Source: Mobula hypostoma
Taxonomy: Eukaryota
NCBI RefSeq assembly: GCF_963921235.1
Contig: NC_086108.1
Coordinates: 13,144,001 to 13,208,000, forward strand
Direction of reading: 5' to 3'
Length of the DNA stretch: 64,000 nt
The translations under genes and the position numbers were made by a program. Below the pieces are notes generated by a model. That model did not search any database and had not been told where the DNA came from. It saw only the letters and a list, made by a program, of their open reading frames with translations. Below are positions 6,017 to 56,415 of the stretch, one piece after another; within the stretch, counting starts at the first letter, position 1, and every line of letters starts with the position of its first letter.

Positions 6017-6160
6017 ATAACGATGAGTGTGAGGACGCAGATGTTTGTGACAATGGAGATTGTGTGAACACAGTGGGTTCCTATTACTGTTCGTGTCAGC
6101 CTCCCCTCATCCTTGATGTCACTCTTCGCAGATGCACCTCCAACGATACCGAGCAGTTTG
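6017..6160 (+). CDS. LTBP4: LTBP4 exon, calcium-binding EGF
   Basis: gtcag|AT...TTTG|gtaagt, 144 bp. (D)NDECEDADVCDNGDCVNTVGSYYCSCQPPLILDVTLRRCTSNDTEQF resembles LTBP4 'DNDEC...CVNTVGSYHCTCEPPLVLD...RRCVSN' as recalled. Confidence 0.93.
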
Positions 6161-6819
6161 GTAAGTGGCAGAGTATTGTCCAGGGCAAGTGGAATTCTCT
6201 CGTCCAGTCCCCATCCCGGCCCTAGTCCGGTCCCCATAGCGGCCCTTGCCCAGTCCTCGAACCAGCTCTTGTATGGTTCCCATCCCGCCCCTTGATCAGC
6301 CCACAATGTGGCCCTTGACCTGTATCCCAGCCCTGGTCCAGGCCCTATCCCAGCCTTTCAATCCTGGAGACAGAGATCCCCTAAAGGTACCAGAATGAAT
6401 TTTTGCAATGCTGTAGGTTGAAAGCCCACAAACAGATATTTGGGAAATTATGTTAATTTTTTGGTGCCATAATCTCAGAATGGCTGGAAAATCTCCTCCC
6501 ATGGCATTCATTTGTAAGATTTGATCTGACAGACTGCATGGCATATTTCCTGTTGCAAAGTGATTCAGTCAGGTTATGGATGAAGTTCTGAGTTCCTTGA
6601 ATTCACCTTAGCGTCTGGTGGTGTCTGATCCTGGGCTAAGGCCTATGAGCTGGTGTCACAGGTGGATAACAAACATGGTTTTGTCACTTTTTAACTCTGC
6701 ATTTCCACCATCTCGTCTCTCGTCCTACTCTCCTTCCCTCCTCCTGTAACACTCTTCCCTTCCCCCATCTCCCCTCTTCCTTCCCTCATCTCACTCTCTC
6801 TACTCCTCTCCCCTCACAG

Positions 6820-6972
6820 ATGTCCACATGGCTCTCTGTTGGCAGGAGGTAGGTCGCAATTACCTGTGTAAAAGGCCTTTTCTGGAGCGACTTACAACCT
6901 ACACGGAATGCTGCTGTCAGTATGGTGAGGCATGGGGAATGGACTGTGCCCTGTGCCCAACCAGAAATACAG
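6820..6972 (+). CDS. LTBP4: LTBP4 exon, last TB (8-cysteine) domain
   Basis: Polypyrimidine tract, cacag|AT...ACAG|gtaac, 153 bp. (D)VHMALCWQEVGRNYLCKRPFLERLTTYTECCCQYGEAWGMDCALCPTRNT, with the TB 'ECCC' triplet and the LTBP4-like 'CWQEVG'. Confidence 0.95.
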
Positions 6973-7854
6973 GTAACGTCACCCTCTCACCTCCACCCAT
7001 CTCCAGTTCCTGACCAACCACTAAACTGACTCCAACACTACCATATCTACAGGAAGCAATACTTTAGAAAACATTTGTAGTCCTGTGTTCTCTGAGATGT
7101 GTTTGTGTAAAGGGAGTAGGAAATGTTAAAGATATTGTCACAGTTCAGGTAGATGGATCCCTAGGCCCTGATTAAATCTATTTCAGAAAGCGAGAGTGGA
7201 GATTGCTTTGGCTGTGCTGGGGATTTTTGCAGCTACTTCGGCTTTGGGAAACGTACCAGAAGACTGAATGTTGTTCTCTTACAGGCAGTGAGTCTTACAT
7301 CAAAGCTGAGGAATTAATTGGAAGAATATCAAAGGTCAGGAGATCTACTCACTTAGAAAGGCGAGACTGATTAGGGGGAGTTAGCAAGTTGAGAAGGGAT
7401 AAGCCTGATGGTAAGCTTTCAACGTAGAGAATGGTGGGTACATAGATGAGCTGCCAGTGGAGGTTGTAAAGACAGATAAAATACAGATACTTGAATAGGA
7501 AGAAGCTGGCATTAGCAAGCAATGCGACGAAGGGTGACAAACTTGGTTCACAAAACTACTGATTTCACTTCATTTCCGCCCTCCTTTTCTTTCTGTTCTC
7601 CTGCTGTTGGAGCCTGTGATCTACATTTTGCTAGTGCATCTTTGGGCTGATTGAGCAAACTGGTGCCTTGCTGTCTCCTACAGAGTTCAGTGAGGTTTTG
7701 TGCGGCCTGGAGGCCGTGAAGCCTGGAGATGGGACGCAAGCCCATGATCGGCTCCATTCTCGCTGACCTCACCGACTAAAGCATTGAGGAAGATTGAAAT
7801 CAACGAGGATGAGAACAGAAGAGGGGCGGATGTTCTGTGCCGTCTACCTGCATG

Positions 7855-8085
7855 TAACCAGTCTCTCTCTCCTCACTCGCTGCTCCCGGAGGAAGCGCTT
7901 GACCGGTCTCTCTCTCTCCTCACTCGCTGCTCCCGGAGGAAGCACTTGACCGGTCTCTCTCTCTCTCCTCACTCGCTGCTCCCGGAGGAAGCACTTGACC
8001 GGTCTCTCTCTTCTCACTCGCTGCACCCGGAGGAAGCACTTGACCGGTCTCTCTCTCTTCTCACTCGCTGCTCCCGGAGGAAGGT
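7855..8085 (+). repeat. ~47-49 bp minisatellite (~4.5 copies) inside a non-autonomous retroelement (~7540-8545)
   Basis: Repeated ggtctctctc(tc)nctcactcgctgctcccggaggaagcacttgacc. Confidence 0.85.
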
Positions 8086-8719
8086 GCCTATGTACAAATG
8101 TTCTCCCTCCCCCTTCTCGCTGGATGGTGCCAGAGTCCATGGGTCTTGGGCAAGGTTTAATTGACACATTTTGTGGATTGGACTCTGTAGTTCACGTTAT
8201 GATGTGTTTCTGGTTTCTGGTCACTCGTTTTTTTGTTTCTGTTTTGTGGGAGTTTGATCAGAGTGGCCTAGCGCTGTAGCCTACGGATAGCGAGAGACTT
8301 GGTGCTCGATTGAACTGAACTGAGTATACCTGGAATCTTTCAAAGGCTTTGTTACTGAGACTTTTGAATTCTGTGTTCCTTGCTCACGTTTTTTCTCACC
8401 ATTTGCGAGAGTTGGTTTTTTTTTGCACGTTCGGGATTTGATATTTTCTCTTTGAGTAGGTTCCATGGTTTTCTTTGTTCCGTGGCTGCCTGTGGGGAAG
8501 ATGAATCCCAGGTTCTATACTGCATACGTTCTTTGGTAATAAACGTACAGGCCTATTGCGAGTGAATGGAATTCGTACAGACTGGTATCACAGTTAGCAT
8601 GGAGGAGATGGGCAGAAGGACCTGTTTCTGTGCTGCACACCTCCAAGACTCGATGGTTCTTTGATGCATTTATACTCATCCTATGGAAATATCACTTACA
8701 TTCTCCCAATGGTCCCATG

Positions 8720-9125
8720 CACTCATCCAAGAGGACCACAAAACCTTGTCATAGATTTGGAGGCTTGCGTGCCTCAGTGACCTGGAGAGTGATGTTGGCT
8801 GGGGTCAGGGCTTTATGCTTTGGCTTTTGATAGAGTCACCCATGCCAAACAGGTAGAGGCCAGACTAAGAGTGGTCCACCGGTCCTCTAGGTTCGGGGGT
8901 TCAGCTCAGGGCTAACAACCCTGTCTGGTCAACAAAACTGTTACAGAAAGAGCAATGAAGAATCCTACATCTGAGTACGACAATATTCCTGAGTCTCCAC
9001 CCAGGACTTGTATGACTGACAACAGGAAGCTACTGACATGACGAAGGAAGCCCTGAACATCACCAGAGTTGGAGGAACTTCATTGCTGCCCTAAACACCA
9101 GCAGTGTAACAGGCAGTAGTAAGTC
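8720..9125 (+). mobile_element. Bipartite RTE-derived non-autonomous element
   Basis: RTE-like 5' leader joined to the 3' end ...ttcattgctgccctaaacaccagcagtgtaacaggcagtagtaagt. Reverse-complement copy at ~15215-15600. Confidence 0.65.
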
Positions 9126-9411
9126 CCATCAACCGACGCATTGCCAATTCCACCACTCGCCAACACATTAGGGATGATTTACAGCATGCCTTTGGGACAT
9201 GGGAGAAGACGGGAGCGTGCAAACTCCACACAACAGCACCAGAGGTGGGCACTGTATCTGGGTCTCTGCCCTCTCCACCAGTGACAGTCCAGTGCCTGTG
9301 GGAGATGGTCAATGGCCAAAGGATGATTTTTTTGAGGCCAAAGGGGTAGAAGGGAGAGGTGAAGTGAAGAATGAGGAATACTTGATATTGAAGCCCTCTT
9401 TTTTCCTGCAG

Positions 9412-9864
9412 AGTATCACAATGCGTTGTGCAGCTACCTGAGTTCACCCACTGAGGAAGACGATGGTTACCCTTATGGGTTGGAATATGAAAACTATGGT
9501 CCGCAGTTTGAACCCGAGTTCCCTCCAGATACCTTCCGGACCTACGATCCCCAAGAGTACGATGCTGGCCCATCTCCCCTCAGTGACGGACGAGGGGCCA
9601 GTCCCCCGGAGTTCGAGCCGTTCCCAGCTGCAGACCCTCTGGGTGGCCGTACGCTCTACGAGTCTCGCCGACAGCGCTCGGGGCCAGGCCACAGTGAGCA
9701 GAGCTCGCCCTCTCGATCCCGCTACCGGCCTCGAGCCAGGCACACCGGCCGAGGCTTCAGCACCAGGAGCACCCGGGTCAGCTTGCCCGAGCAGCAGAAT
9801 CGTCAGCCAGACGCTGCACCAGACCCCCACCCTCACCTCATCAGTAACAATGGGCAATATCACA
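9412..9864 (+). CDS. LTBP4: LTBP4 exon, end of TB domain plus Pro/Tyr/acidic then Arg/Ser-rich linker (3' end uncertain)
   Basis: ttttcctgcag|AG acceptor gives (E)YHNALCSYLSSPTEEDDGYPYGLEYENYGP... In-frame phase-1 donor candidates are A|GTGAGC after 9693 and A|GTGAGT after 9864. A phase-0 G|GTCAGC follows 9776. Confidence 0.7.
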
Positions 9865-10285
9865 GTGAGTATTATCATGTCACTACGGACCTGGTCTCTC
9901 TCCCTCCCCTCCACTCCCACCCCTTTCCCTCTCCTCCCTCCACTCCCAGCCCTTTCCCTCTCCTCCCTCCACCCTCACCTCATCAGTAACAATGGGCAAT
10001 ATCACAGTGAGTATTATCATGTCACTGCGGACCTGGTCTCTCTGCCTCCCTCTCTCCCCCCTCCACTCCCACCCCTTTCCCTCTCCTCCCTCCACTCCCA
10101 GCCCTTTCCCTCTCCTCCCTCCACCCTCACCTCATCAGTAACAATGGGCAATATCACAGTGAGTATTATCATGTCACTGCGGACCTGGTCTCTCTCCCTC
10201 CCACGCACACACATTTCATCAGTAGCAATGGGGAAGATGAGAGTGAGGGAAATCGTGTCACTGCAGACCCTGTCCCTCTCTCGTC
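9831..10285 (+). repeat. 142-152 bp tandem repeat (3 copies plus 1 diverged), each with a CT-rich spacer
   Basis: cctcacctcatcagtaacaatgggcaatatcacagtgagtattatcatgtcact starts at 9831, 9973 and 10125. Confidence 0.9.
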
Positions 10286-10339
10286 CTCTCCATTCCTCTC
10301 GCTCCCTTCTCATCCTCTCCCTGCGTCATCCCCATATTC

Positions 10340-11938
10340 TCTTTTTTAGAAGAGGTTATCAAAGTTCCCACATGGGGCGGTGCTCAAGAAGGTTCAGTCG
10401 CTCGGTATTCAAGATGAGGTAGTAAATTGGATTAGGCATTGACTTTTTGGTAGAAGCCAGAGAGTAACAGTAGATCGTTGCCTCTGACTGGAGGCCTGTG
10501 ACTAGTGGTGTGGTGCAGGGATCGGTGTTGGGACCTTTCTTGTTTGTCATCTACATCAACGATCTGGATGATAATATGGTTAACTGGATCAGCAAATTTA
10601 CAGATGACACTAAGATTGAGGGTGTAGTGGACAACGAGGAAGATGATCATAGCTTGCAGTGGAATCTTATCCAGCTGGAAATATGGGCTGAAGAACGGCA
10701 GATGGAATTTAATGTGGACGAGTGTGATGTTTTGCACTTCAGTAGGACCAACCAGGGTAGGCCTTACACAGTGAACAGTAGGGCACTGAGGAGTGTGGTA
10801 GAACACAGGGATCTGGGAATACAGGTACATAGTTTATTAGAAGCGGTGTCATAGGAGATAGGGTTGTAAAGAAAGCTTTTGATACATTGGCCTTCATAAA
10901 CCAAAGTATCGGGTACAGGAGATGGGATGATATGTTGAAGCTGTATAAGGCATTGGTGAGGCCTAATTTGGTGTGCAGTTTTGGTCACCTACCTATAGAG
11001 AAGATGAAAATAAGGTTGAAAGAGTACAGAGTAAATTTATAAGGATGTTGCCGGGTCTGGAGGACCTGAGTTATAAGGAAAGATTGAATAGGTTAGGACT
11101 TTATTCCTTGGAATGTAGAAGATTAACAGAGGTATACAAAGTTACAAGGGGTATAGACGGGGTAAATGTAAGCAGGCTTCTTCCACTACAGTTGAGTGAG
11201 ACTACAACTAGTGGTCATGGGTTAAGGGTAAAAGGTGAAACGGTGAAGGGGAACATGAGGGAAGCTTCTCTGCTCAGAAGGTGGTGAGAGTTTGGAATGA
11301 TCTACTGACACAGTGATGCATGCAAGCTCGATTTCAGCATTTAAGATGTTTCGCTATGTACGTGGATGGTAAGGGTATAGAGGGCAATGGTCCCAGTGCA
11401 GGTCAATGGGAGTAGGTGGCTTAACTGGTTCGACATGGATTAGATGAGCCAAAAGGCGTGCTTCTGTGCTCTCCTTTTCCAGAGGACTAGAATATAAATG
11501 CAAGGATGTAATGTTGAGACTTTATAAAGTGCTGGTGAAGACTCACTTGGAGTATTGTGAACAGTTTTGAGCCCTTTAGCTAAGAAAAAGTGTGCGGACA
11601 GTGGAGAGGGTTCACGACAATGATTCCGGAAATGAAAAGATTATCACCTGAGGAACGTTTGATGGTTCTGGGCCTCTACTCACTGGAATTTCGAAGAATG
11701 GGGGAGAATCTCTTTGAAACATATCGAATGTCGAAAGGCCTCAGTAAAGTGGATGTGTGGAGGATGTTTCCTATAGATGGGGGGGTGTGATTTCAGACCA
11801 GAGGACACGGAATAGAGGGGTGTCCTTTAAGAATGGAGATGAGGAGGAATTTCTTTAGCCAGAGAGTGGTGAACCTGTGGAATTTGTTGCCACAGTCGGC
11901 TGCAGAGGCCAAGTTATTGGGTATATTTAAGGCAGAGC
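10340..11938 (+). mobile_element. CR1/HER1-type LINE fragments (RT and 3' region)
   Basis: SGVVQGSVLGPFLFVIYINDLD...SKFTDDTKI; QFWSP...ERLNRLGLYSLE. Confidence 0.9.
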
Positions 11939-11939
11939 G

Positions 11940-13140
11940 ACATACAAAATGCTGGAGGAACTCAGCAGACCAAGTAGCAACTATGAAAAAGTGTTAACAG
12001 TTGACGTTTTGGGCCAAGAATCTTTATCAGGACTGAAAAAAGGAAATGAGAAGTGAGAGTAAGAAAGTGGAGGAGGGGTAGAAGAAGTACAAGGTAGTCG
12101 GTGATGTGTGAAACTGGGAGAAGGGGAGGGGAGAAGGAAAGAGCTGGGAAGTCAATTGGTGAAAGGGATAAAGGGCTGGAGAAGGGAGAATCTGATAGGA
12201 GAGGGCTGAAGGCCGTGGAAGAAAGGGTAGGGGGAGGAGCGTCAGAGGGAGGTGATTGGTGATAGAAGATGAGGTGAGAGAGGGAAACAAGGATAGGGAA
12301 TAGTGAAAGTGGGAAGCAACTATTGGAAATTCAAGAAATCGATGTTCATGCTATCAGGAAGGAGGCTACCCAGACAGAGTATGGGGTGTTGTTCCTCCAA
12401 CCTGAGTGTGGCCTCATCACAACAGTAGAGGAGGCGATGAACAGACATGTCAGAATGGCAATGGAAGTAGATTTGAAATGGATGGCCACCAGGAGATTCT
12501 GCCTTTTCTGACAGACAGAGTACAGGTGCTTGGTGAAGCAGACTCCCAATCTTCGTCGGGTCTCACCAATATACAGGAAACCACACCAGGAGCACTGGAT
12601 ACAGTAGATGACCCCAACGGACTGACAGGTGAAGTGTCGCCTCACCTGGAATGGCTGTTTGGTGCCCTGAATAGTAGTGAAGGAGGAGGTGTAAGGGTTG
12701 GTGTGGCACTTGTCCTGCTTGCAAAGATAAGTACCGGGAGGGAGATCAGTGGGGAGGGGCAAATGGACAAGGGAGGCGCTTAGGGAACGATCCCTGTGGA
12801 AAGCAGAAATTCGGGAGGAGGGAAAGATATGCTTGGTGGTGGGATCCCATCAGAGATGGCAGAAGTTATGGAGAATAATGTGTTGGACACGATAGGCGAG
12901 GACAAGAGGAACCCTATCCTTGGAGGGGTGATGAGTGGATGGGGTGCGAGCGGACATGCGTGAAATGGAAGATGCAGTTGAGGGCAGTGTTGGTGTGGAG
13001 GAAGGGAAGCCCATTTCTTTGAAGAAGGAGGACATCTCTTTAGTTCTGGAATGAAAAGCCTCATCCTGAGAGCAGATGCAGCAGAGACAGAGGAACTGAG
13101 AGAAGGGAATGGCATTTTTACAAGTGACAGGGTGGGTATG
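11940..13140 (-). mobile_element. Penelope-like element (PLE) 3' part: GIY-YIG endonuclease remnant plus pseudo-LTR
   Basis: ORF 12346-12762 has FQVRRHFTCQSVGVIYCIQCSWCGFLYIGETRRRLG..F..HL (GIY-YIG). The distal end carries a degenerate hammerhead motif at 11998-12035. Confidence 0.85.
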
Positions 13141-13504
13141 ACAGAAATGGCGAAAAAGATCCCCTGCATGCTCTCATCCACCCCATGACACCTTATTCTT
13201 CCTCCTGTCACCTCCATCCTTTTCCTCTCTCCCTGCTGTCCCCCTCTGCCCCCTCTCTATTGTCAGAGCCCTGTGCCTGTTATAATCCCTGTAATGTTTT
13301 GTAACTTCAAAACATTAAATTAATTCAAATGAAGGCACAGGAGTCCAAAATGTACGTCTAACTTCGTGCTTATTTTAAGCAAGGTGCACAGGTATCACAT
13401 GGTAGCGTGATGACATATGGAATTCACGTATTTGTACATATAACCCATGATCGATAATTTGAATGAACAAGAACATTTGGTCAACCAGTCTATAGACAGG
13501 ATTA

Positions 13505-13785
13505 TGCACCATGGTAGAGTAGTGGTTAATACAACACAGTACAGTACCAGCAACCCAGATTCAGTTCCCAATGCTGTCTGTAAGGAGTTTGTATATCCTC
13601 TCCATGACCAAGTAGGTTTCCTCCAGGTGCTCCAGTGCCCTCCCACAATCCAAAGATGCTCCGGTTGGTAGGTCAATTGGTCATTGTAAATTGTCCTGTG
13701 ATTAGACTGGCATTGAACCAGGGGTTGCTGGGAGGTGCAGTTCGAAGGGATGAAAGGACCTATTCAGCATTGTTTCTCAATGAGT
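13505..13785 (+). mobile_element. tRNA-derived V-SINE/HE1-like SINE
   Basis: tggtagagtagtggttaatac...ggtttcctccaggtgctccagtgccctcccacaatccaaaga. Confidence 0.7.
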
Positions 13786-14024
13786 ACAAGTAACATCTTT
13801 CCTCCATTAACTCCATTAGTGACATTAACTTTGGATTTTACCCACACTTACCTGTAACACACCACAAACTGCGCATAGCCGCCACGGCCCATTTGTGATG
13901 CCCTCGCACTATCCTCACCCTGCCAGGATGAGACGGTTTCCTCCCACAGTCCAAAGACGTAATAAAACGGAAATATTAAATACACAGCAATCGCAGAACC
14001 TGACATTGTGCCGCTTTGATCCAG

Positions 14025-14174
14025 CCCGGTTCCAGCAATACAACAGCCTGCGGGTGGAGGAATGTGGAATTCTGAACGGCTGTGAGAATGGCAGGTGTGT
14101 CCGTGTGCCTGAAGGCTTCACCTGTCACTGTGATGCCGGCTACAGACTCGACATGACCAAGATGACTTGCATTG
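14025..14174 (+). CDS. LTBP4: LTBP4 exon, EGF-like domain
   Basis: gatccag|CC...ATTG|gtacgg, 150 bp. [50 protein letters not shown]. '[10 protein letters not shown]' and 'YRLDMT' are LTBP4-like. Confidence 0.92.
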
Positions 14175-14655
14175 GTACGGAGTTGGAAGGGGGTGCTGGT
14201 GCAGGGGGAAGGGAGGCGCTGGGGGTTTGGAAGCTCGGCTTTAGGCCACAGTGAGGCAGGTTGGCCCAACAGCTGCTTCAGGCCAGGATAATGGCTCCTC
14301 TCACACACCCAGCTCAGAGATTTATTTTATCGAAAAACTGCACGTCCACAGAGTGTGATAACTCAAGTGTACTCCTGCGGTGTGCGAGCTGGCTGTGAGT
14401 GGATGCTACAAGAGGTGTGTCTGTGTGTGTGTGTGTGTGTGTCTGGGGTGCACAGGGGATGTGGGGGGGGGGAAATGAGTGTGCAGAGGGGTGAGTCCAT
14501 TAATGGATCTGCAGGGGAGAGGGTGCACGTGGGTGTGAGTCTGTGGGGAATGAGTGTGACAAGCTATTTGTTGAGGAGTGGGAACTAAGTGGGTTGTGAA
14601 GTTAGTGAGAATGATGAGCTGAACACAGCCGCTAACACATTTCCTTTGGTTTCAG

Positions 14656-30284: not shown

Positions 30285-30410
30285 GCAACACACATCAAAG
30301 TTGCTGGTGAACGCAGCAGGCCAGGCAGCATCTCTCGGAAGAGGTACAGTCCACGTTTCAGGCCGAGACCCTTTGTCAGGACTAACTGAAGAAAGAGCTA
30401 GTAAGAGATT
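30285..30410 (-). mobile_element. Short Penelope pseudo-LTR fragment with a mutated hammerhead
   Basis: Minus strand AGTC-CTGACAA-AGGGTCTCGGCCT-GAAACGTG-GACTG at 30347-30384. Nearly identical to the 54856-54995 element. Confidence 0.75.
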
Positions 30411-34990: not shown

Positions 34991-35439
34991 CTAACAAGCC
35001 GAGTCCACGGGACTTTACACAAGAGAGGAGGGGAGGGAGAGTGCATATACATTCGAAGTTAGCAAGATAAAATGTGATCCAGTGTAACAGAGATCGCCAT
35101 CACCAGATGTGCATCAACATTTGTAACAGAAGAAGTAAACCGAAGAACATCAGCACTAGGAACCACATCACAGAAATGAAGCAATGCATGGGTTGCACCT
35201 TTGGGTTGGACCTCGATTCTTATCTTTTAATCCTTGAGGAACCAACATGTAAATGGAAATGTAACATTAAAAGCAGGTGGAGTTTACTCCAGAAATTGTA
35301 ACACAGAAATGAAGCAACTCATGTTGCACTCTGGACCTGGATTCATGTGAACTTTAACCAAAAGCAGATGGAGTTCTCAGCCATATAAATTACTGGCAAC
35401 ACAGACTCTCACAAAGTCACTGCAAGCAGGTCCAGAACC

Positions 35440-36185
35440 AGCTGGAGTTTTCCATGGATCCTCAGATCACTGATGTAGGGGCCAATTCATCCGGCCTCTC
35501 CCAAACCCACACATCCCCGATCTGGGGGCCGGTTCAGTTGGACTTCCCCAGACCCACAAATCCCTGATGTGGAGGCCAGTTCATCCGGACTCTCCCAGAC
35601 CCGCAGAGCCCTGATCTGGGGGCCAGTTCGGTTGGACTTCCCCAGACCCACACATCCCCGATCTGGGGGCCAGTTCAGTTGGACTTCCTTTGATCCACAG
35701 ATCACTGACGTGGGGGCCAGTTTATCCGCACTCTCCCAGACCCACAGATTCCTGATGTGGGGGCGAGTTCAGTTGGACTTCCCCAGATCCACAGATCCCT
35801 GATGTGGGGGCCAGTTTAACCAGACTCTCCCAGACCCATAGAGCCCTGATGTGGGGGCCTGTTCAGCTGGACTTCCCCAGACCCATAGATCTCCGATGTG
35901 AGGACACGTTCAACTAGAATTTTCTATGTACCCGCAGTTCCCTGACATGGGAGCGAATTCAACCAGAATTTTCTATGGACATACAGCTCTCTGATGTGGG
36001 GCCAGTTCAGCAGTTATTTTCTGTGGATCTGCAGCTCCCTGATGTGGGAGCCAGTTCAACCAGAATTTTCCGTGGATCTGCAGCTCCCTGATGCAGGAGC
36101 CAGTTCAACTGGAATTTTCCGTGGATCTGCAGCACCCTCACGTGGCAGCCAGTTCAACTGGAATTTTATGCGGACCTGCAGCTCA
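35440..36185. repeat. 47-49 bp minisatellite (~15-16 units) downstream of the SHKBP1 stop
   Basis: Unit gatgtgggggccagttcagttggacttccccagacccacagatccct. A period of 47 was checked at 35472, 35519 and 35566. Confidence 0.9.
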
Positions 36186-41341: not shown

Positions 41342-42324
41342 CTGTGGGAAGTTGGGAAAGTATAAGGCTTGTCCATTGAATGACATTGCAAGGATTTTTT
41401 TCCCCACGAATCTCCCCAGGACTTTCCGAATCCCTCTCTGTTTGTCAGAAAGGCTGCAATTCCACAAACACGTTCGCCAAAATTGTGCCCATACCCATTT
41501 TCAGTAAAATCAAACATAAAAACAAAATGGTGGAAATAACTGACAAGAAACCAGCATCTGTGTGGAGAGAACAGTAAACAGAGAGGACACAGCATTCAAA
41601 TAAATGGACGTCCATATACTACGGATGTGATGAGGAATTTCTTTAGACACAGAGTGGTGAATCTGTGGAATTCGTTGCCACATGAGGATGTAAGGCCAAG
41701 TCATTGGGTATATTTAAGGCAGAGATTGATAGATTCTTGATTAGTCAGGGCATGAAAGGTTACTGGGAGTAGACAGGAGATTGGGGCTGAGAGGGAAATG
41801 GATCAGCAATGATGAAATGGCAGAGCAGACTCGATGGGCCAAATGGCCTAATTCTGCTCCTATATCTTATGGTCTTAAAATTGGGAAAGAGAAAGAGAGG
41901 AAATAAGTTTGTTTTAAGTTAGAGACTGGACGAGGAAAGATATGGGTAAAATGAAAGGAATTTCTCTGATAGGCTGGGGCCAAATTACAATACAATAGTT
42001 GAAATTATATCTGGTACTCTACTTAGTGGACTGAAAAAGTCAACACTTCAAAGTTCAAAGTCAAATTTACTATCAAAGTACATTTATGTCAACCTGAGAG
42101 TTATTTTCTTGTGGGGATACTCAACAAATCTATAGAATAGTAACTAGAGTGGGTGCAATGAAAGATCAACCAGAGTGCAGAAGACAACAAACTGTGCAAA
42201 TACAAATATAAATAAATAGCAATAAATCACGAGAACCGAGATAATGAGATAAAGGGTCCTTAAAGTGAGATAATTGGTTTTGGGAACATTTTAATGATTG
42301 GGCAAATGAACGTACTTAACCCCT

Positions 42325-43340
42325 AGAGGCCTGTGACTAGTGGTGTGCCACAGAGAACAGTGCTGGGCCCTTTGTCGTTTGCTATCCATATATCAATGAT
42401 CTGGATGATAATGTGGTTAACTGGATCAACAAATTTGTAGATGACACCAAGACTGGGGGGGGGGGGGGGTTTAGTGAACGGTGAGGAAAGCTATCATGGT
42501 TTGCAGAGGGATCTGCATCAGCTGGAAAAATGGGCTGAGAAATGGCAGAAGGAATTTAATGCAGACAAGTGCGATGTTTTGCACTTCAGTAGGACCAACC
42601 AGGGTAGGTCTTACAGAATGAACTGAGGAGTGTGGTAGAACAAAGGGATCTGGAAACACAGGTACTCAATTTGTTGAAAGTAGAGTCCCAGGTAGATAGG
42701 GTTGTAAAGAAAGCTTTTGGCAGATTGGCCTTCATACATCAATTTATTGTGTACAGGAGATGGGATGTTATGTTGAAGTTGTACAAGATATTGGTGAGGA
42801 CTAATTTGGTGTGCAGTTTTGGTCACCTACCTACAGGGAAGATGTAAATAAGGTTGAAAGAGTACAGAGAACATTTACAAGGATGTTTGCCAGGACTAGA
42901 GAACCTGAATGAAAAGGAAAGATTGAGTAAGTCAGGACTATATCCCTTGGAGTGTAGAAGATTGACAGGAGATTTGATAGAGGTATACAAAGTTATGAGG
43001 GGTATAATTAGGGCAAATGCAAGCAAGCTTTTTCCACTGGGATTGGGTGGGACTGCAGCCAGGCATCATGGGTTAAAGGTGAAAGGTGAAAAGTTTAAGA
43101 GGAACATGAGGGGAAACTTCTTCACAAGAGAGCGGTGAGAGTGTGGAACGAGCTGCCAGTGCAAGTGGTGCACGCGACCTTGATTTCAACGTTTAAGGGA
43201 AGTTTGGAAAGGTACACGGATAATAGGGATATGGAGGGCCATGGTCGTGGTGCAGGTCGATGGGAGTAAGCAGTTTCAAAGGTTTCATCTTGGACTAGAT
43301 GGGCTGAAGGGCCTGTTTCTGTGCTGTACTTCTCCATGAC
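42325..43340 (+). mobile_element. CR1 LINE 3' fragment
   Basis: LQRDLHQLEKWAEKWQKEFNADKC; RRLTGDLIEVYKVMRG. Same subfamily as 10340-11480. Confidence 0.88.
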
Positions 43341-44425
43341 TATTACCCTATGACTAAGATCCCCAAGGATCAGAAAATAAACAGACCCATCAGCCTTATT
43401 GTCTGTTCTGATGAAGAATTCTCCAACAGCAATGTTAACTGCTTCTACAGATTCTGTCTGACCCAAGTGTTTCCAGTGTCTTCTGTTTTACAGGGGTTTA
43501 GTGCCATGGACCAATACCATGAAGCAAGGGGTCCATGGACCCCAGGTCGCAAATCCCTGGTCTATGGTAAAGATGAGTCTATAGTTGGGGGCAGAATGCA
43601 GCAAGTTGCTCAGTGGAGGACAGACACTTCCCCTCTGTTGAGGCAATGGAAATATGACATGACAGAAGGAAAATAGGACAGTCAGATGAATTGAACTCCA
43701 GATCCAGCACCATTTCAGAACCCAGGTCCTAGGCCCTGGACCAATGTCAGCTGCTCTTTTGCCAACACCAAGAGCAAAACGCAATGGATCTCTCTCATCT
43801 AACCCAAAACAATTGGTGGTGTCACTCATCCACTCAAACACTAGTATTCCTCACACATCCAACGCTTCAATGATCCCACCATCCCACAATCAAACTGGGA
43901 TCACAAGACACTGGAGCAAAATTAGGCTATTCAGCCCATTGAGTCTGCTCCACCATTTCTCCATGGTTGATCCATTTCCCTCTCAGCCCCAATCTCCTGC
44001 TTTCTCCCCTAACCCATCACACCCTGACTAATCACGAATCCAGCAATCTCCACCTTAAGTACATTCAATGACTTGGCCTCCACAGCCATTTGTGGAAACA
44101 AATTCCAGAAATTCATTGCCCTCTGGCTGAAGAAATTCCTCCTCATCTCTGTTTTAAATAGATGTGCCTCTATCTGAGGTTGTGTCCTCTGGTCTGAGAC
44201 TCCCCCACTATAAGAAATGAAGCATCCTCTCCACATCCACTCTTTTGAGGTACTTCAACATTCGATAGGTTTCAATGAGATCGTCAACTAATTTTTCTGA
44301 ATTCCAGTGAGTATCAGCCCAGAACCATCAAATGCTCCTCATGCGATAAGTCTCTCAATCCTGGAATCATTTTTGTGAACCTCCTTTAAACCCTCTTCAA
44401 TGTTAGCAAGCCTTTTCTTAAATAA

Positions 44426-44922
44426 ACGCAAAGTAATCTGCAGGTGCTGAGGTCAAAACGACACTCACAACACGCTGGAGGAACTCAGCAGGTCGGGCAG
44501 CATCCATGGAAACGATCAATCAACGTTTCGGGCCGGAACCCTTCGTCAGGACTGAAGAGGGAAGGGGCAGAGGTGCGGGGAGGGTGGGAAGGAGAAGGCT
44601 GGTAGGTTCCAGGTGAAAAACCAGTATGGGGAGGGGAAGCAGGGAGGTGATAGGCAGGAAAAGTGAAGAAAGGTTCCTCCTTCACCTTTCCTGCCTGTCA
44701 CCTCCCTGCTCCCCCTCCCCCATCCCTTTATCTTTCCCCTTACTGGTTTTTCACCTGGAACCTACCAGCCTTCTCCTCCCCACGCTCCCCCCACCTTCTT
44801 TATAGGGCCTCTGCCCCTTCCCTTTTCAGTCCTGACAAAGGGTTCCGGCCCGAAACGTTGACTGATCGTTTCCACGGATGCTGCCCGACCTGCTGAGTTC
44901 CTCCAGCGTGTTGTGAGTGTTG
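44426..44922. mobile_element. Fold-back Penelope-derived insertion with a 14-bp TSD, inside a CR1 fragment
   Basis: Arms ~44461-44673 and ~44676-44920 are reverse complements. TSD cttttcttaaataa at 44412-44425 and 44923-44936. Confidence 0.88.
44517..44554 (-). ncRNA. Minimal type I hammerhead ribozyme motif (core intact)
   Basis: CAGUC-CUGACGA-AGGGUUCCGGCCC-GAAA-CGUU-GAUUG: stem I CAGUC/GAUUG, stem II GGG/CCC, palindromic ACGU stem III, GUU cleavage triplet. Confidence 0.65.
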
Positions 44923-46373
44923 CTTTTCTTAAATAAGGAGCCCAAAACTGCTCACAGTTCTCCAAGTGATGCCTCACCAGTGACTCATAAAGCCTCAGCA
45001 TTAGATCCTTGCTTTTATATTCTAATCTTCTCAAAATGAATGCTAACATTGCATTTGCCTTCACCACCACTGACTCAACCTGCAAATTAACCTTGAGGAA
45101 ATCCTGCACAATGACTCCCAAGTACCTTTGCACCTCATATTTTTGAATTCTCTCTCCAATCCTTCTACCAAAGTGCATGACCATAAACTACACTTCCCAA
45201 CTCTATTCCATCTGCCATTTGTTTGCCCATTCCCCTAATCCAAGTCCTCTGTGGCCTTCCTCAGCACCACCTGCCCTTTCACTTATCTTCGTATCATCCA
45301 CAAACCCACCAACTCCTGTTACCATCAGCTCCCCTGAAGTGCGGTGCCACTCTGCCTCAGCTCAATCGTCACTAAAACCCACGCTTACACCTCGCTTCAT
45401 CTCCAGATTCGGCTATTTCAATATCCTGCTGGGTGGCCCGACTCATTCAAACTCGCACAAATCATCCAAAACGCAGTTTCTTTTGTACCTGTCACATCAA
45501 GTTCCATTTTGTAATCATCCTCCAGCCTATATCAGCTCCTTCTCTCACAAGCTTCCTATCCTTTCACCTTCTCAGCACCCCCTAACACATCTCCAAATAT
45601 AATCCTTCTATCATTAGCTGCCTTTCCTGGGAGATTCCAAATCTAAGCACCTCTCATTCAACTTCAAAACTTCTGAAGGTTTCAGGAAGTTCAAAGTACG
45701 TGTGTCACCATATACAACCCCGAGATTCACTTTCCTCCAGCATAATCTATAGAATAGTAACTATAACAGGATCAATGAAAGATCAACCAGAGTGCAGAAG
45801 ACAACAAAACGTGCAAATACAAAGATAAATAAATAGCAATAAATAATGAGAACATGAGATAATGAGATACAGGGTCCTTAGCGTGAGATCATTGGTTTGG
45901 GAAACATCTCAATGGATGGGGATGTGAGTGTGGTTACCCCTTTTGTTCAAGAGCCTTATAGTTGAGGGGTAGTAACTGTTCTTTAACCTGGTGGTGAGAG
46001 CCTTGAGGTTCTTGTACCTTCCACCTGATGGCAGCAGTGAGAAAAGAGCATAGTCTGTGTGGTGGGTTTCTGATGATGGATGCTGCTTTCCTACGACAGT
46101 GTTTCATGTAGATATGCTCAGTGGTTGGGAGGGGTTTACTTGTGATGTACTGGGTCAAATCCACTACCTTTTTGTAGGATTTTCCAATCAAAGGCTTTGG
46201 TGTTTCCATACCAGACCGTGATGCAACCAGTCAATACACTCTCCACTACACAACTATAGAAGCTTGTCAAAGTTTTATATGTCATGCCAAATGCTGTGGG
46301 GTGGGGGACAGGCACACAGTCAAAACAAAGCCAGACACCTTGAATCTGGATGACTGGCCAATCCAGGACTCAC

Positions 46374-46470
46374 CTCCTACCAGTTGAGGACAAACGCACG
46401 AAGAGCTGATTGGTGTCTGGGACAACCTTCTGAATAAAAACCTGCTCCTCATCCCGATCTCCAAATGGGC
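46374..46470 (-). CDS. SHKBP1: SHKBP1 internal exon
   Basis: ttctag|GC...GGAG|gtgagt, 97 bp, phase 1-2. (G)[31 protein letters not shown]. Confidence 0.94.
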
Positions 46471-46627
46471 CTAGAAAAGAGTAAAATCAAGAGGAAGTGG
46501 AGTGGACCAGAAGTGAAGTGGGAGTGAGGATGGATGGAGTGGAGGAAGAGGCGGAACGGAAATGGATGGTGGACGGACAAGTGAGGGGGTAGGGATGGAA
46601 TGCACCATTCATCATCAGGGATCTCAC

Positions 46628-46783: not shown

Positions 46784-49339
46784 CTGTGTAAAAGACACAA
46801 TTGGGAGCTGATTCTACTAATTCGCTTGGTGAATTCCCCCTCTCTCCACTCCTGTAAGGCTTCCGCTCCAGCATTTAGACCATAAGATACAGGAGCAGGA
46901 TTAGGCCATTTGGCCCATCGAGTCTACTCTGCCATGTCATAATGGCTGATCCATTCTCCCTCTCAGCTCCAATCTTCTACCTTCTACCCGTATCCTTTCA
47001 TGCCCTGACTAAACAAGAATCTATCAACCTCTGCCTTAAATGTACCTAATGACTTGGCCAACACAGCTGCCTGTGGCAACAAATTCCACAGATTCACCAC
47101 TCTCTGGCTAAAGAAATTCCTCCTCATCTCCATTCTAAATGGACACCCCTCTATTCCGAAGCTGTGTCCTCTGACCTTAGACTCCCCTCTATAGGAAACA
47201 TGCTCTCCACATCCCCTCTATCAAGACCTTTCAACCACTGATAGATTTCAATGAGATCCCCCCTCATTCTTCTGAATTCCAGTGAGTACAGGCCTAGAGC
47301 CATCAAATCCCCCTCAAATGACAAGCCTTTCAATCCCAGAATCATTTTCATGAACCTCCTTTGAACCCTCTCTGATGTCAGCACACCTTCTCTTAGATAT
47401 GGAGCCCAAAACTGCTCACATTATTCCAAATGAGGCCTCACCAGTGCTTCATAAAGCCTCAACTTTATATCCTTGTAACATATACGTACTTTGATAATAA
47501 ATTTATTTTGAACTTCGAAAATTGATTTCTTCATCCAACAGGAAAAGCAATAACTACTAATCCTGGGTCACTTCACATATCCCTCCACAAACCTGGCTGG
47601 GTGCTTTCTTGCTCGAGGCACCCTTGTGTATCAGGCCGAGTTTGATGAGCTTTTAGGCTGACATGCTTCCCCAAGCATCAGTGCATCTTGGAACAATGCA
47701 TTGGTCCAAGACTCCCCCACCATCAGAAACATCCTCTCCACACACACACTCTGTCAATGCCTTTCAACTAGGCAAGAACCACATGCAGATGGTCAAAGAT
47801 GACCACTGAACGTTAAACCAATCAGTTCTCTTCCACCCCAGCCAGGCACTAGGCTCCTCAGGGCTAATTCCTTCTCTGGCAGCAGAGAAGGAGATGAGGG
47901 ACAGTGGACCTTGAGAGACCAGGCAACTGCTCCAGTTTAGGATTAAAGTCCAACCAGCTGCGTGGACCTTGGGATCGCCTCACTCTTTTTCCAGCCCTCA
48001 CTCTACGGAAGCTGCAATGATGTGTTTCCGAAAATAAATGAGAATAACCAAATGGTACACAAAAACAGTAGGCCACTTGTGCCACTATTCTCTTCATGTG
48101 CCAGTTCACCATAACCCTCCATTCCTTCATCCTCCACATATTTGTCCATCTTCACCAGTGATCTGGCCTCCACCAGACTCAGGGACAGAGAATTCCAAAG
48201 ATCCACCACTTTGAGAAATCTTTACACATCTCAGTTTTAAATGATTGGCTCCTTATTTTGTCTTCAAGGGGTGATGCTTCAAAAAGACGGCGTCCATCAT
48301 TAAGGATCCCCATCACCCAGGTCATGCCTTGTCGTCATTGCTACCATCAGGAAGGAGGTACAGGAACCTGAAGGCACACACTCAATGATTCAGGAACAGC
48401 TTCTTCCACTCTGCCATCTGATTTCTGAATGAACATTGAACCTATGAACATTACCACACTACTTTTTTTCTTTCTAATTGTGCACTACTTACTTAACATA
48501 ACTAAATATATAACTTAACTAAATACAACTACCCTGTGAAGCCCCTTAAGAGCTTAGGTTGAGTCAGTGGTGAGGAAGGCAAATGCAATGTTAGCATTCG
48601 TTTGCTGAAGACTCAAAATATAAAAGCAAGGATATAACATTGAGGCTTTCTAAAACACTGGTGAGGCCTCACTTGGAGTATTGTGAGCAGTTTTGGGCCC
48701 CTTATCTTAGAAAGGATATGCTGAAACTGGAGAAGGTTCAAAGAAGGTTCACAAAAATGATTCCAGGATTGAATGGCTTGTCATATGAAGAGTGTTCGAT
48801 GGTTCTGGGCTTGTACTTATGAATGAGGGGTGACCTCATTGAAACCTACTGAATGTTGAAAGGCCTCGATAGAGTGGATGTGGAGAGGATGTTTCCTACA
48901 GTGGGGGAGCCTAAGACCAGAATCGAGGGATATCCATTTAGAACAGAGATGAAGAGGAATTTCTTTAGCCAGAGAGTGGTGAATCTGTGGAATCAGTTGC
49001 CATAGATGGTTATGGAGGTCAAGTCACTATGTATATTTAAGGAAGAGGTTGTTAGATCAGGGCATGAAGGGATATGGCGAGAAGAAAGTAGATTGGGGTT
49101 GAGAGGGAAAATGGATTAACAATGATGAAATGGCAGAGCGGACTTGATAGGCCAAATGGCCTAATTCTGCTCCTGTATCTTACTTACGTTCTTAAAATCT
49201 TGTCTATCTGAATGAAGTAACCCTCAGTTCTTCTAAACTCACAGCAATACAAACCCAAAGCACCCACACTGCCATGATACGTCAATTCAGGAATCAAAGC
49301 ACGAGAAGAAGATCTAACAAGGAGAGACAAACTCCCTAC

Positions 49340-49510: not shown

Positions 49511-50968
49511 CTGTCACAGAGACCACAGCAAAGAGGCATTCAGCCCTAATGTATAAATAACCTGAAGTATTATTTACATAACAAATACTTGAAGCAGCAA
49601 AGTGTCCCGTGGAACTTTACAGAGCTGCTACCAGAAACTATCAGTCCTCAAAGTGAGATATCAAAAAAGCAAAAGCTGGATCCAAGGAGCAGATACTACC
49701 TAAGGCAAGACAAAGTGCTTTTATTATCAAAATCACAACCGTTCAATTGAATATCAGAGAATGTATGCAGTATACAACCTGAATTCCTTACTCTTCACAG
49801 ACACCAATGAAACAGAGAGATAAAAACCCAAAGAATGAATGACAGAAAATGTTAGAACCCCACGGTCACCCCACACACAAGCAGCAGAAAAAATATCAGC
49901 CCTCCCCCTGCTTGCTCCAGCAAAATTATCCCCCCCACCCACCATGCAAGCAATAGCAAAGCCCCCTCGAGACCATCTAAACCTACTGTCCACCCCAACA
50001 CTTTGACATCTCAAACAGGCCCTCTCTCTCACTAGCGAGGGAGAGATATCACCCCTGCCCCACAGCGAGAGGGGAGAGCAACAGCTCGCTGTTTCGATGT
50101 TACAATCTGCCCTATCGTTTGCCCGAGCCCCCGCCTCGAAGACCCGCAGAACCTGACTCACCATCACATAAACATCATGGAACCAGTTCAAGGAAAACCT
50201 CAAACATCTAACCCGTGAAAAAAAGGATAAAATTGCACAGACAGCAAAAGCTAGCAAACAACAGATAGAATATCAAACCGATAGTATTAAGTTTCGTTCA
50301 GTTCGGCGCTGCTCCACTGGCCAATGCAGGCACCAAGACCACTCTTCGCCAAAGCGATCCAGTCCGCATCAATCGCCCCGATCAAACCGCTCAAAAAGAG
50401 CGAGAAAGGAAAAAAAGAGCAACTAGAGTCCAGGAACGCCTACACGAAATGTAGCAGTAAACTACAGTAATTAGGATCCAGTTCGCTGAATAACACACAA
50501 AAGATGCTGGACGAACTCAGCAGGTCAGACAGTAGCTGTGGAGAGGAATAAACAGACAATGTTCTGGGCCGAGGCTCTTCATCAGAACGGGAGTAGAATG
50601 CTAGTTTAGGGCGGTGCTGAAGGCTCCAGGACGATTACCACACCTGTGCTGAACTGAGACTGAGGCTGGGGGCCTGCTTCGGCCTACATGTCTATGGACT
50701 CACTTTAACGTTCTAAATGCTATTTGCTTACTTTTACTGTTTGCACGATTTGCGGTCTTTTTTTCTCTCTGCACATTGGGCGTTTGTCAGATTTTTTTAA
50801 AATAGGTTCTTCTGTGTTTCTCGTTTTGTGGCTGCCTATAAGTAGACAAATCTCAAGGCTGTGTAATGTAAACATACTTTGATCATAAAAGTACTTTGAT
50901 CCAATTAAAATTGGAGTTGAACTGGACTTTAATGACTTTAAGTAGCAGCAGCACGGATCTGGACTTAC

Positions 50969-54185: not shown

Positions 54186-54855
54186 CACTCACACACCTCA
54201 ACTGGTGACGAAACATCTACAAGCTAATGGCCAAACATGGCGAACATGGCAACATCGGACACTTCAACCCAAGTTACCAACGTATACAAGGCCATATATT
54301 GGAGCAAATTAGGCCATTTGGCCCATCAAGTCTACTCCACCATTTCATCATGGCTGATCCAATTTTTCTCTCAGCCCTGATCACCTGCCTTCTTCCCATA
54401 TCCCTCCATACTCTGACCAATCAAGAATTTATCAGCCTCTGCCTTAAATATACCCGATGACTTGGCCTCCACAACTGCCTGTGGCAAAGAATTTCACAGA
54501 TTCACCACTCTCTGCCTAAAGAAATTCCTCCTCATCTCTGCTCTAAAAGGACACTACTTTATTCTGAGGCTGTCTTAGACTCTCCCACCATAGGAACCAT
54601 CCTCTCCACATCCACTCTATCAAGGCATTTCAACATTCAATAGGTTTAAACAAGGTCACCCCTCATTTTTCTGAATTTTAGTGAATATAAGTCCAGAGCT
54701 ATCAAACGCTTTTCATATGACAAGCCATTACTCCCTGTATACCCATGACTGTATCGTCACCCACAGCTCCAATCTGCTAATTAAATTTGCTGACGACACG
54801 ACATTGATTGGCCTTATCTCAAACAATAACAAGGTAGCCTACAGGGAAGAAGTCA

Positions 54856-54995
54856 AACAACAGGAATTCTGCAGATGCTGGAAAATCAAGCAACACACAT
54901 CAAAGTTGCTGGTGAACGCAGCAGGCCAGGCAGCATCTCTAGGAAGGGGTACATCAACGTTTCAGGCCGAGACCCTTCGTCAGGACTGATGAAGA
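54856..54995 (-). mobile_element. 140-bp Penelope-derived mini-element with a 10-bp TSD
   Basis: TSD gaagaagtca at 54846-54855 and 54996-55005. The Rex1 sequence resumes across the insertion. Confidence 0.88.
54952..54988 (-). ncRNA. Minimal type I hammerhead ribozyme motif (core intact, stem I weakened)
   Basis: CAGUC-CUGACGA-AGG-GUCUCGG-CCU-GAAA-CGUU-GAUG. Confidence 0.6.
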
Positions 54996-56415
54996 GAAGA
55001 AGTCATCTCTCTGACACAATGGTGTCAAGAAAACAACCTCTCCCTCAATGTCGCAAAACAAAGGAGCTGGTTGTTGATTACAGGAGGAATGGAGACAGGC
55101 TAACCCCTATTGACATCAATTGATCTGGGGTTGAGAGGGTGAACAGCTTTAAGTTCCTCGGCATGCACATCACTGAGGACCTCACGTGGTCTGTACATAC
55201 CAGCTGTGTGGTGAAAAAGGCACAACAACGCCACTTTCACCTCAGACTGTTGAGGAAGTTTGGGATGGGCCCCCAAATCCTAAGAACTTTCTACAGGGGC
55301 ACAATTGAGAGCATCCTGACTGGCTGCATCACTGCCTGGTATGGAAACTGTACCTCCCTTAATCGCAGGACTCTGCAGAGAGTGGTGTAGACAGCCCAGC
55401 GCATCTGCAGTTGTGAACTTCCCATGATTCAGGAAATTTATAAGGACAGGTGTGTAAAAAGGGCCAGTAGGATCATTGGGGACCCAAGTCACTATTCTAG
55501 CTGCTGCCATCCAGGAAGCGGTACTGCAGCATAAAAGCCAGGGCCAACAGGCTCTGGGACAGCTTCTTCCACCAGGCTATCAGGCTGATGAACTCACACT
55601 GATTTGAGTGTATTCTATATTATATTGACTGTTCTATTTATTATAAATTACTATGATTGCACATTGCACATTTAGATGGAGACGTAACGTAAAGATTTTT
55701 ACTCCTCATGTATGTGAATAATGTACAAAATATATTCAATTCAATTCAATCCTGGATTCATTTTCGTGAACCAGCCTTGAACCCTTTCCAGTTTCAGCAA
55801 ATCCTTTCTAAGGATAAGGCCCAAAACTGTTCACTATACTTAAGTGAGGCCTCACCAGTGTTTTATAAAGTCTCAACATTACATCTTTGCTTTTACATTC
55901 TAGTCCTCTTGAAATTAATGCTAACAGTGCATTTGCCTTCCTCACCACAGACTCAACCTGCAAATTAACCTTTAAGGAATCCTGCACAAGGACTCCCAAG
56001 TCCCTTTGCATCTCAGTATTTTGTATTTTCTGTCCATTTAGAAAATAGTCAACCCTTTTATTTTCTTCCACTAAAGTGCATGACCATACACTTCCTAACA
56101 CTGTATTCCACCTGACACTTCTTTGTCCATTCTCCTAATCGAAGTCCTTCTGTAGCCTTTATACTTCTTCAGAACTACCTGCCCCTCCACCTATCTTCAT
56201 ATCATCTGCAGACTTTGCAACAAAACCATCAATTCCATCATGCAAATCATTGGCATAAAATGCAATACAATTGGTCCCAACATAGACCATAAACATAGTG
56301 TAACACCACTAGTCACTGGCAGCCAACCTGAAAAGGCTCTCTTCATTCCCCATTCTTTCCCTCCTGCCAATCAGCCACTGCTTTATCTTTCCTCTAATAT
56401 ATAAATATACATTAC

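What the first reader, a model, noticed from the sequence alone, without database searches (positions are those of the whole stretch)
44426..44922. Fold-back, hammerhead-bearing Penelope-derived insertion with its own 14-bp TSD in a SHKBP1 intron
Seen in sequence: a ~500-bp near-palindrome with arms of ~210 and ~245 bp and almost no loop at ~44674. It is bounded by cttttcttaaataa on both sides and splits a CR1 fragment. Each arm carries a hammerhead-like motif: an intact core on the minus strand (44517-44554) and a G8->A variant on the plus strand (44827-44864). Established: Penelope-like elements form inverted pseudo-LTR structures and carry minimal hammerheads. Inference: this moved as one non-coding unit, either an aborted PLE integration or a MITE-like retro-palindrome. 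It would form a >200-bp dsRNA hairpin in the SHKBP1 pre-mRNA, a possible ADAR or Dicer substrate that also sequesters the ribozyme.
Basis: partly seen in the sequence, partly recalled or inferred. Interest (0 to 1): 0.78.

Follow-up and report, generated by a model that had tools for sequence, protein, structure and literature searches.

The report
Head-to-head Penelope retroelement stump
This 497-base mirror-image insert in a gene intron of a ray-like fish is real, and is most likely the leftover of one insertion by a very common Penelope-type jumping gene, a shape already described for these elements, not a new kind of mobile RNA.

Summary
44426-44922 is a near-palindrome (arms 215 and 249 bp, 12 mismatches in 210 aligned bases, 1-2 nt at the turn) between two identical 14-bp AT-rich repeats. 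It splits a CR1-type LINE relic in a 5.0-kb SHKBP1 intron. Each arm has a minimal hammerhead: core intact on the minus strand, G8>A on the plus strand. Inverted 5'-truncated ends, a one-sided 30-40 nt tail, a target duplication and opposite-strand hammerhead pairs are all published for Penelope-like elements. A related repeat in this window is joined to a Penelope GIY-YIG ORF. The repeat is very abundant in public runs, and the two gaps are deletions in the left arm. I read it as one truncated integration, probably built by fold-back of the new cDNA. Whether other copies share this junction could not be tested; 0 of 5 related copies in the window are palindromic. The RNA hairpin is predicted but editing is untested, and the ribozyme is probably inert. 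Ordinary: new member of a known kind.

The parts
44412..44425 (.). Left copy of the 14-bp target-site duplication (12 of 14 bases A/T)
44426..44458 (-). 33-nt Penelope 'tail', left arm only; ends 117 nt downstream of the start of hammerhead stem II
   Evidence: the copy at 54856-54995 has a similar tail
44459..44673 (-). Left arm: 5'-truncated PLE 3' end (pLTR part), element sense on the minus strand; deletions of 14 bp (at 44570/44571) and 19 bp (at 44626/44627)
   Evidence: family contigs carry both segments (loose ends at 44571 and 44628)
44517..44554 (-). Minimal type I hammerhead, core intact, C3 44549, H17 = U at 44522; sense in SHKBP1 pre-mRNA
44669..44679 (.). Head-to-head turn; both arms are cut off within 1-2 nt of the same template position
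44674..44922 (+). Right arm: 5'-truncated PLE 3' end without tail; ends 84 nt downstream of the start of stem II
   Evidence: this end is a common boundary of family contigs (loose ends before 44461)
44827..44864 (+). Minimal hammerhead with G8>A at 44837 (CpG-type change); antisense in SHKBP1 pre-mRNA
44923..44936 (.). Right copy of the target-site duplication
43899..44425 (-). Host CR1-type LINE relic, part left of the insert
   Evidence: CR1 label from recalled motifs
44923..45298 (-). Host CR1-type LINE relic, part right of the insert
41342..46373 (-). Host SHKBP1 intron (5,032 nt); insert lies 1.45 kb from the donor and 3.08 kb from the acceptor
11944..13155 (-). Related, longer PLE copy elsewhere in the window: post-RT region and GIY-YIG ORF remnant (13155-12323), pyrimidine-rich 3' part, decayed hammerhead end (12039-11944)

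Best explanation
The insert is two 5'-truncated 3' ends of a Penelope-like retroelement joined head to head, most likely laid down in one integration event in which the new cDNA probably folded back and copied itself. Inferred steps: the element's GIY-YIG endonuclease nicked both strands 14 nt apart at an AT-rich site in an old LINE. Reverse transcription primed from the plus-strand nick began at the outer start site (tail end, +117) and stopped after about 280 nt of template (tail plus arm). The cDNA end turned back and copied about 250 nt of itself. The product was resolved at the inner start site (+84, no tail) and joined to the second nick, and fill-in gave the TSD. Since then the arms drifted apart by 5.7% and the left arm lost 14 and 19 bp. 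The hammerheads are passengers and likely inert. The hairpin would form briefly in SHKBP1 pre-mRNA and may be edited, with no sign of a role. Shown: anatomy, TSD, tail, family abundance, left-arm deletions. Inferred: order of events, fold-back, inertness. Probability that it is a one-off PLE integration product by either priming route: about 0.85.
For: One TSD around both arms inside a continuous LINE. [quoted passage not shown] The tail end at +117 from stem II matches the +111 to +118 RT start of the anole element, whose ORF starts at stem II and which prefers AT-rich targets (PMC11167929). The tail-less end is a frequent family boundary: 326 contigs in X1 have loose ends before 44461 with only 0.39 agreement. 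The hammerhead end is 71-73% like 11944-12039, which follows a GIY-YIG ORF that is 65-70% identical to ray PLE proteins and 43% to an RT+GIY-YIG protein. Both arms stop within 1-2 nt of the same template position, which coupled synthesis explains directly. Opposite-strand min-HHR pairs 100-700 bp apart were already reported (PMC4209133).
Against: No other copy with a junction was seen, so 'one-off' is not shown: the joints table hid 455 rows and no genome is held. The turn has no tidy primer stem; DNA folding leaves an 11-nt loop, and the family sequence upstream of the turn was not obtained, so a snap-back microhomology could not be checked. Truncation points are clumped (4 of 5 other copies stop 4-36 nt upstream of the hammerhead C3), so two independent stops could coincide more often than a uniform model says. 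The link to the GIY-YIG ORF covers only about 95 nt; upstream of the hammerhead the match is no better than shuffles (136 of 300 as good). No listed contig spans the turn.
Confidence: 0.6

Rival explanations
1. Same one-off PLE integration, but both nicked strands primed reverse transcription independently (one at the tail start site, one at the tail-less site) and the two cDNAs were joined head to head.
For: The anole PLE protein cleaves and extends both strands, uses two adjacent start sites and is predicted to be a dimer (PMC11167929). The two outer ends here are exactly the two family ends.
Against: It needs both cDNAs to stop within 1-2 nt of the same place; my rough figure is 1-3% if stops were spread evenly over a few hundred bases, more if there is a stop hot spot.
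Confidence: 0.25
2. The palindrome is a non-autonomous mobile unit: a pre-formed hairpin copied as a whole by the PLE machinery, with a fixed junction.
For: One TSD frames the whole unit. Both outer ends carry the cis sequences at which PLE reverse transcription starts. pLTR-framed cargo moved in trans in a rotifer (PMC3846280). The junction test is still open.
Against: 0 of 5 related copies in the window are palindromic, though all five are of other subfamilies. Left-arm letters are rare in the family: at 44576 98-100%, at 44519 95-99.6% and at 44460 98-99.5% of depth carry the right-arm letter in the four runs, so this version did not multiply; an older source palindrome is not excluded. A 215-bp RNA stem would be a poor RT template (inference).
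Confidence: 0.08
3. The hairpin was kept because it acts in SHKBP1 RNA processing (editing, small RNAs, or a ribozyme held off by the antisense arm).
For: Strong predicted hairpin in the sense of the gene. It is the best-paired of 18 inverted pairs in the gene span. The intact hammerhead is on the transcribed strand.
Against: Changes look like neutral decay: G8>A, CpG changes, two deletions. It lies over 1.4 kb from either splice site. A single min-HHR showed no cleavage and the anole HHR needed its protein. The partner motif is on the other strand, so no cis dimer can form. H17 = U is the majority letter in the family (62-99% of depth), not a special feature.
Confidence: 0.04
4. The palindrome is an assembly or chimeric-read artefact.
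For: No listed contig spans the turn.
Against: Arms differ at 12 sites and by two deletions, one has a tail, and a perfect TSD sits in a continuous LINE; a chimeric fold-back gives none of these.
Confidence: 0.02

Closest known systems
Inverted-pLTR insertions of endonuclease-bearing Penelope-like elements (Arkhipova et al. 2013, PMC3846280, passages and Discussion read; Craig et al. 2021, PMC8557442, passages read)
   Same: Head-to-head inverted 5'-truncated ends, one-sided tail of 30-40 nt, one TSD around the unit, palindrome at the junction.
   Different: No ORF left between the arms; TSD 14 bp against 8-10 bp in the rotifer examples; host is a ray-like cartilaginous fish.
Minimal hammerheads of metazoan PLEs (Cervera and De la Pena 2014, PMC4209133, parts 1-2 of 4 read)
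   Same: Type I core, 5-bp helix I, one unpaired base before stem II, palindromic positions 15.2-16.2; pairs on opposite strands 100-700 bp apart were reported in Schistosoma.
   Different: Stem II is short here (4 bp in the fold); H17 is U; one copy has G8>A. Cartilaginous fish are not named in the parts read.
Poseidon element of Anolis carolinensis, PAc (Frangieh et al. 2024, PMC11167929, parts 1-2 of 4 read; 3 supplementary text files searched for three terms, no hit)
   Same: Tail lies between two RT start sites; outer end about 111-118 nt after stem II (117 here); AT-rich target.
   Different: PAc is an intact element tested in vitro; that paper, in the parts read, does not explain inverted insertions. 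Clade identity with PAc was not tested by a tree.
Non-LTR retrozymes (bioRxiv 10.64898/2026.07.22.740005, passages and Discussion read, supplements not seen)
   Same: Short, non-coding, hammerhead-bearing, PLE-derived; reported in one chondrichthyan.
   Different: Retrozymes are head-to-tail tandem units with ribozymes on one strand; here the two motifs face apart on opposite strands.
MITEs / foldback DNA transposons (recalled)
   Same: Short, non-coding, long inverted repeat, TSD.
   Different: Ends are asymmetric by 33 nt, the sequence is a retroelement 3' end, and no uniform copies were seen.

Membership tests
Endonuclease-bearing Penelope-like element | Terminal repeat linked to an ORF with C-terminal GIY-YIG endonuclease | tested here: met
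   Through a related window copy only (71-73% over about 95 nt; ORF 13155-12323). The insert itself has no ORF; upstream of the hammerhead the match is not significant.
Endonuclease-bearing Penelope-like element | Telomerase-like RT in the same ORF | tested here: inconclusive
   The window copy is truncated before the RT core; P0008, 40-43% identical over the shared part, has RVT_1 plus GIY-YIG.
Endonuclease-bearing Penelope-like element | Minimal hammerhead in the pLTR | tested here: met
Endonuclease-bearing Penelope-like element | Inverted 5'-truncated copy at the 5' end (head to head) | tested here: met
Endonuclease-bearing Penelope-like element | 30-40 nt tail at one end | tested here: met
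   33 nt, 44426-44458
Endonuclease-bearing Penelope-like element | Short TSD at an AT-rich target | tested here: met
   14 bp, 12 A/T
Penelope/Poseidon clade (against Neptune) | RT phylogeny | not tested
   No RT core in the window; only the spacing match to PAc.
Mobile non-autonomous palindrome / MITE | Many copies with the same ends and centre and different TSDs | not testable with these tools
   No genome; joints hidden; 0 of 5 window relatives palindromic.
Mobile non-autonomous palindrome / MITE | Symmetric terminal inverted repeats reaching both TSDs | tested here: not met
   33-nt unpaired tail on the left
Non-LTR retrozyme | Tandem direct repeats with hammerheads on one strand | tested here: not met
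   Motifs on opposite strands; no long direct repeat nearby
Active hammerhead ribozyme | Self-cleavage | not testable with these tools
   Core intact on one arm, but the fold pairs it fully with the other arm.
CR1 LINE (host repeat) | CR1-clade RT C-terminus | tested here: inconclusive
   Motifs seen in translation match my recall of CR1; Pfam gave no hit; no repeat library on hand.

The most novel reading that the evidence does not exclude
The palindrome is a member of a non-autonomous, TSD-making retro-hairpin family: a PLE integration by-product that became a template itself and spread with a fixed junction, seeding ready-made 200-bp dsRNA hairpins into ray introns.
Probability: 0.08. Interest if true: 0.55.

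Novelty: new member of a known kind. Interest (0 to 1): 0.2.

Why it matters
As a single locus it matters little. As a class it is useful: how PLEs make inverted insertions is still open (PMC8557442 calls for such work; PMC3846280 proposes self-priming; PMC11167929 shows two start sites and two primed strands). A genome with so many copies allows a census of turns, tails and TSDs that could separate fold-back from two-primer synthesis. This copy, with both arms stopping within 1-2 nt, is one data point for fold-back. If the junction were shared by many copies, it would show an RNA hairpin acting as a mobile unit.

Tried and rejected
No whole genome is held, so the genome-wide junction count was impossible. 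Rfam scan of 43000-46500: 91 matches at E up to 5, none at gathering score, mostly miRNA models fitting the hairpin; no hammerhead family listed. Motif scans for outside copies: viral contigs 0, prokaryote genomes 0, metagenomes 21 loci, all chance matches of 19-25 bases. Sequencing runs: 24 listed, 20 hold part of the stretch, no RNA holder on record; I laid 4 of the 24. Contigs were laid on 44000-44710 only (left flank, left arm, 37 bp of the right arm). The joints table showed 15 rows and hid 455, none shown at the turn; no listed piece spans the turn or the left TSD, so neither junction sharing nor an empty site in organism B or C was decided. In the one RNA-guess run the change spectrum (A>G 9, T>C 8) equals that of the DNA runs, but family copies swamp the locus, so this says nothing on editing. 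Pfam found nothing in the window's own GIY-YIG, LINE and one SHKBP1 frame. Protein read-through could not tie the arms' subfamily to an ORF. The arm differences show no one-directional A>G pattern. Paper searches: 'Penelope + cartilaginous fish + hammerhead ribozyme' 0 papers; searches listed no paper on ray PLE palindromes or on a mobile PLE-derived palindrome family (listings only; the library lacks most subscription papers and Repbase/Dfam). Look-ups of earlier findings by sequence gave nothing, nor did one by seven words.

Full report
Observation. The sequence is as described. A 497-bp insert (44426-44922) lies between two identical 14-bp words at 44412-44425 and 44923-44936. Its arms are 44459-44673 and 44674-44922. 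They differ at 12 of 210 aligned bases, and the left arm has gaps of 14 and 19 bp. The arms meet with an offset of 1-2 nt. It is the only such fold-back my scan found in the 64 kb. With the insert and one TSD copy removed, the flanks align straight through in six other LINE copies of the window, at 68-81% identity, so the insert landed in an older repeat in one event. I call that repeat CR1-type from recalled motifs; Pfam gave no hit. The host gene is SHKBP1 on the minus strand; the intron runs 46373 to 41342. The nearest named proteins are from rays.

Hammerheads. The left arm has a full minimal type I core on the minus strand (C3 44549, cut predicted after 44522). The right arm has the same motif on the plus strand with G8>A at 44837. 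Alone, each folds helix I and stem II but no better than shuffles (25 and 28 of 200 as good). Rfam listed no hammerhead family. Both motifs have U at H17, which is the majority letter in family contigs: 78% of depth in X1, 76% in X5, 99% in X9, 62% in X16.

What it derives from. Five related single-arm copies lie in the window. One (12039-11944, minus) follows a decayed ORF at 13155-12323 that is 65-70% identical to ray proteins with a GIY-YIG domain and 40-43% to an RT plus GIY-YIG protein. So the arms are 3' ends of a Penelope-like element. The tie covers only the roughly 95 nt around the hammerhead; further upstream the two subfamilies match no better than shuffles. The left arm has 33 extra outer bases (44426-44458). 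This fits the PLE 'tail': 30-40 nt, often at one end only, with an inverted 5'-truncated copy (PMC8557442, passages; PMC3846280, passages and Discussion). In the anole element the tail lies between two RT start sites, with initiation 111-118 nt into an ORF that begins at stem II (PMC11167929, parts 1-2 of 4). Here the two outer ends lie 117 and 84 nt from stem II. Minimal hammerhead pairs on opposite strands 100-700 bp apart were reported in 2014 (PMC4209133, parts 1-2 of 4).

Public runs. Twenty of 24 listed runs, under nine organism labels, hold part of the stretch; small shares that I did not lay are no evidence. I laid 4 runs on 44000-44710: 52,206, 58,583, 35,674 and 6,030 contigs were laid, host LINE included. 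Summed depth on the arm in X1 is 0.6-6.9 million against 17-19 for two flank contigs with no differences; the tool warns this is no copy number, but the family is plainly very abundant. Family contigs carry the 14- and 19-bp segments, so both gaps are left-arm deletions. At 44460, 44519 and 44576, 95-100% of depth has the right-arm letter. Loose ends before 44461 (326 contigs in X1, agreement 0.39) mark the tail-less end as a common insertion boundary, though tails of other subfamilies may add to them. The joints at the turn were not displayed, so junction sharing is undecided.

Mechanism. One PLE integration explains the TSD, the two outer ends and the one-sided tail. Two routes give the same product: fold-back of the first cDNA, or two cDNAs primed from the two nicks. 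That both arms stop within 1-2 nt favours fold-back (0.6 against 0.25), in line with the self-priming reading of head-to-head junctions in PMC3846280 (which placed it on an antisense template; the nascent cDNA version is my inference). Against it: no clean primer stem at the turn, no upstream family sequence to test for one, and clumped truncation points in other copies. A mobile palindrome (0.08) is not excluded, but 0 of 5 window relatives are palindromic and this version's private letters are rare in the family. An artefact is very unlikely (0.02), though no read evidence spans the turn.

RNA consequences. In SHKBP1 pre-mRNA the insert is predicted to form a hairpin of about 210 bp that pairs the intact hammerhead completely. 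It is the best-paired of 18 inverted pairs of 80 bp or more in the gene span; the other 17 are 63-85% identical. Editing of such intronic hairpins is expected from general knowledge of ADAR (recalled) and is untested here. A lone minimal hammerhead did not cleave in published assays, and the anole one needed its protein, so the ribozyme is probably inert with or without the hairpin. Nothing points to selection.

Earlier notes of this scan describe other PLE palindromes in this genome, in findings of about 300, 590 and 3,700 bases, and shark copies whose centres differ. They agree with variable turns but are unchecked AI notes and are not counted as support.

Verdict. Real, well formed and ordinary: a new member of a described PLE insertion type. 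My searches listed no paper on this ray family, but the library lacks most subscription papers and repeat databases, and the bioRxiv supplements were not seen. Interest 0.2.

Noticed in passing
window 2443-2540, 30286-30406, 50492-50588, 54856-54999: Four of the five other PLE end copies are truncated only 4-36 nt upstream of the hammerhead C3, which suggests a stop hot spot for reverse transcription near the ribozyme fold.
   Followed up: partly
window 54846-55005: A 140-bp PLE stump with tail and intact hammerhead core (minus, C3 54983) sits between 10-bp direct repeats inside another LINE; a paralogue at about 33400 shows the empty site.
   Followed up: partly
window 11944-13155 (minus): 1.2-kb 5'-truncated PLE with frameshifted GIY-YIG ORF and decayed hammerhead.
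   Followed up: partly
window 44454-44458 and 44923-44927: Three to four A-rich bases match between the target end and the template at the tail-less joint, a possible microhomology for the second junction.
   Followed up: no
window 44570/44571 and 44626/44627: Both left-arm deletions remove the A-rich ATAAAG-containing stretches of the purine-rich strand; may be chance or hairpin-driven slippage.
   Followed up: no
window 41582-41878 with 46874-47172; 46883-47475 with 48627-49182: Inverted LINE pairs (85% and 77%); the first brackets two SHKBP1 exons (46793-46608, 46474-46373), a layout that can favour exon circularisation.
   Followed up: no
window 5821-14254 (plus): EGF-like and other exon fragments that look like an LTBP-family gene tail to tail with SHKBP1; LTBP4 is the neighbour in mammals (recalled).
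   Followed up: no
window 35439-36184 and 9824-10296: Tandem repeats with periods of about 80-95 bp and 142-152 bp; the second lies in open frames beside the LTBP-like exons.
   Followed up: no
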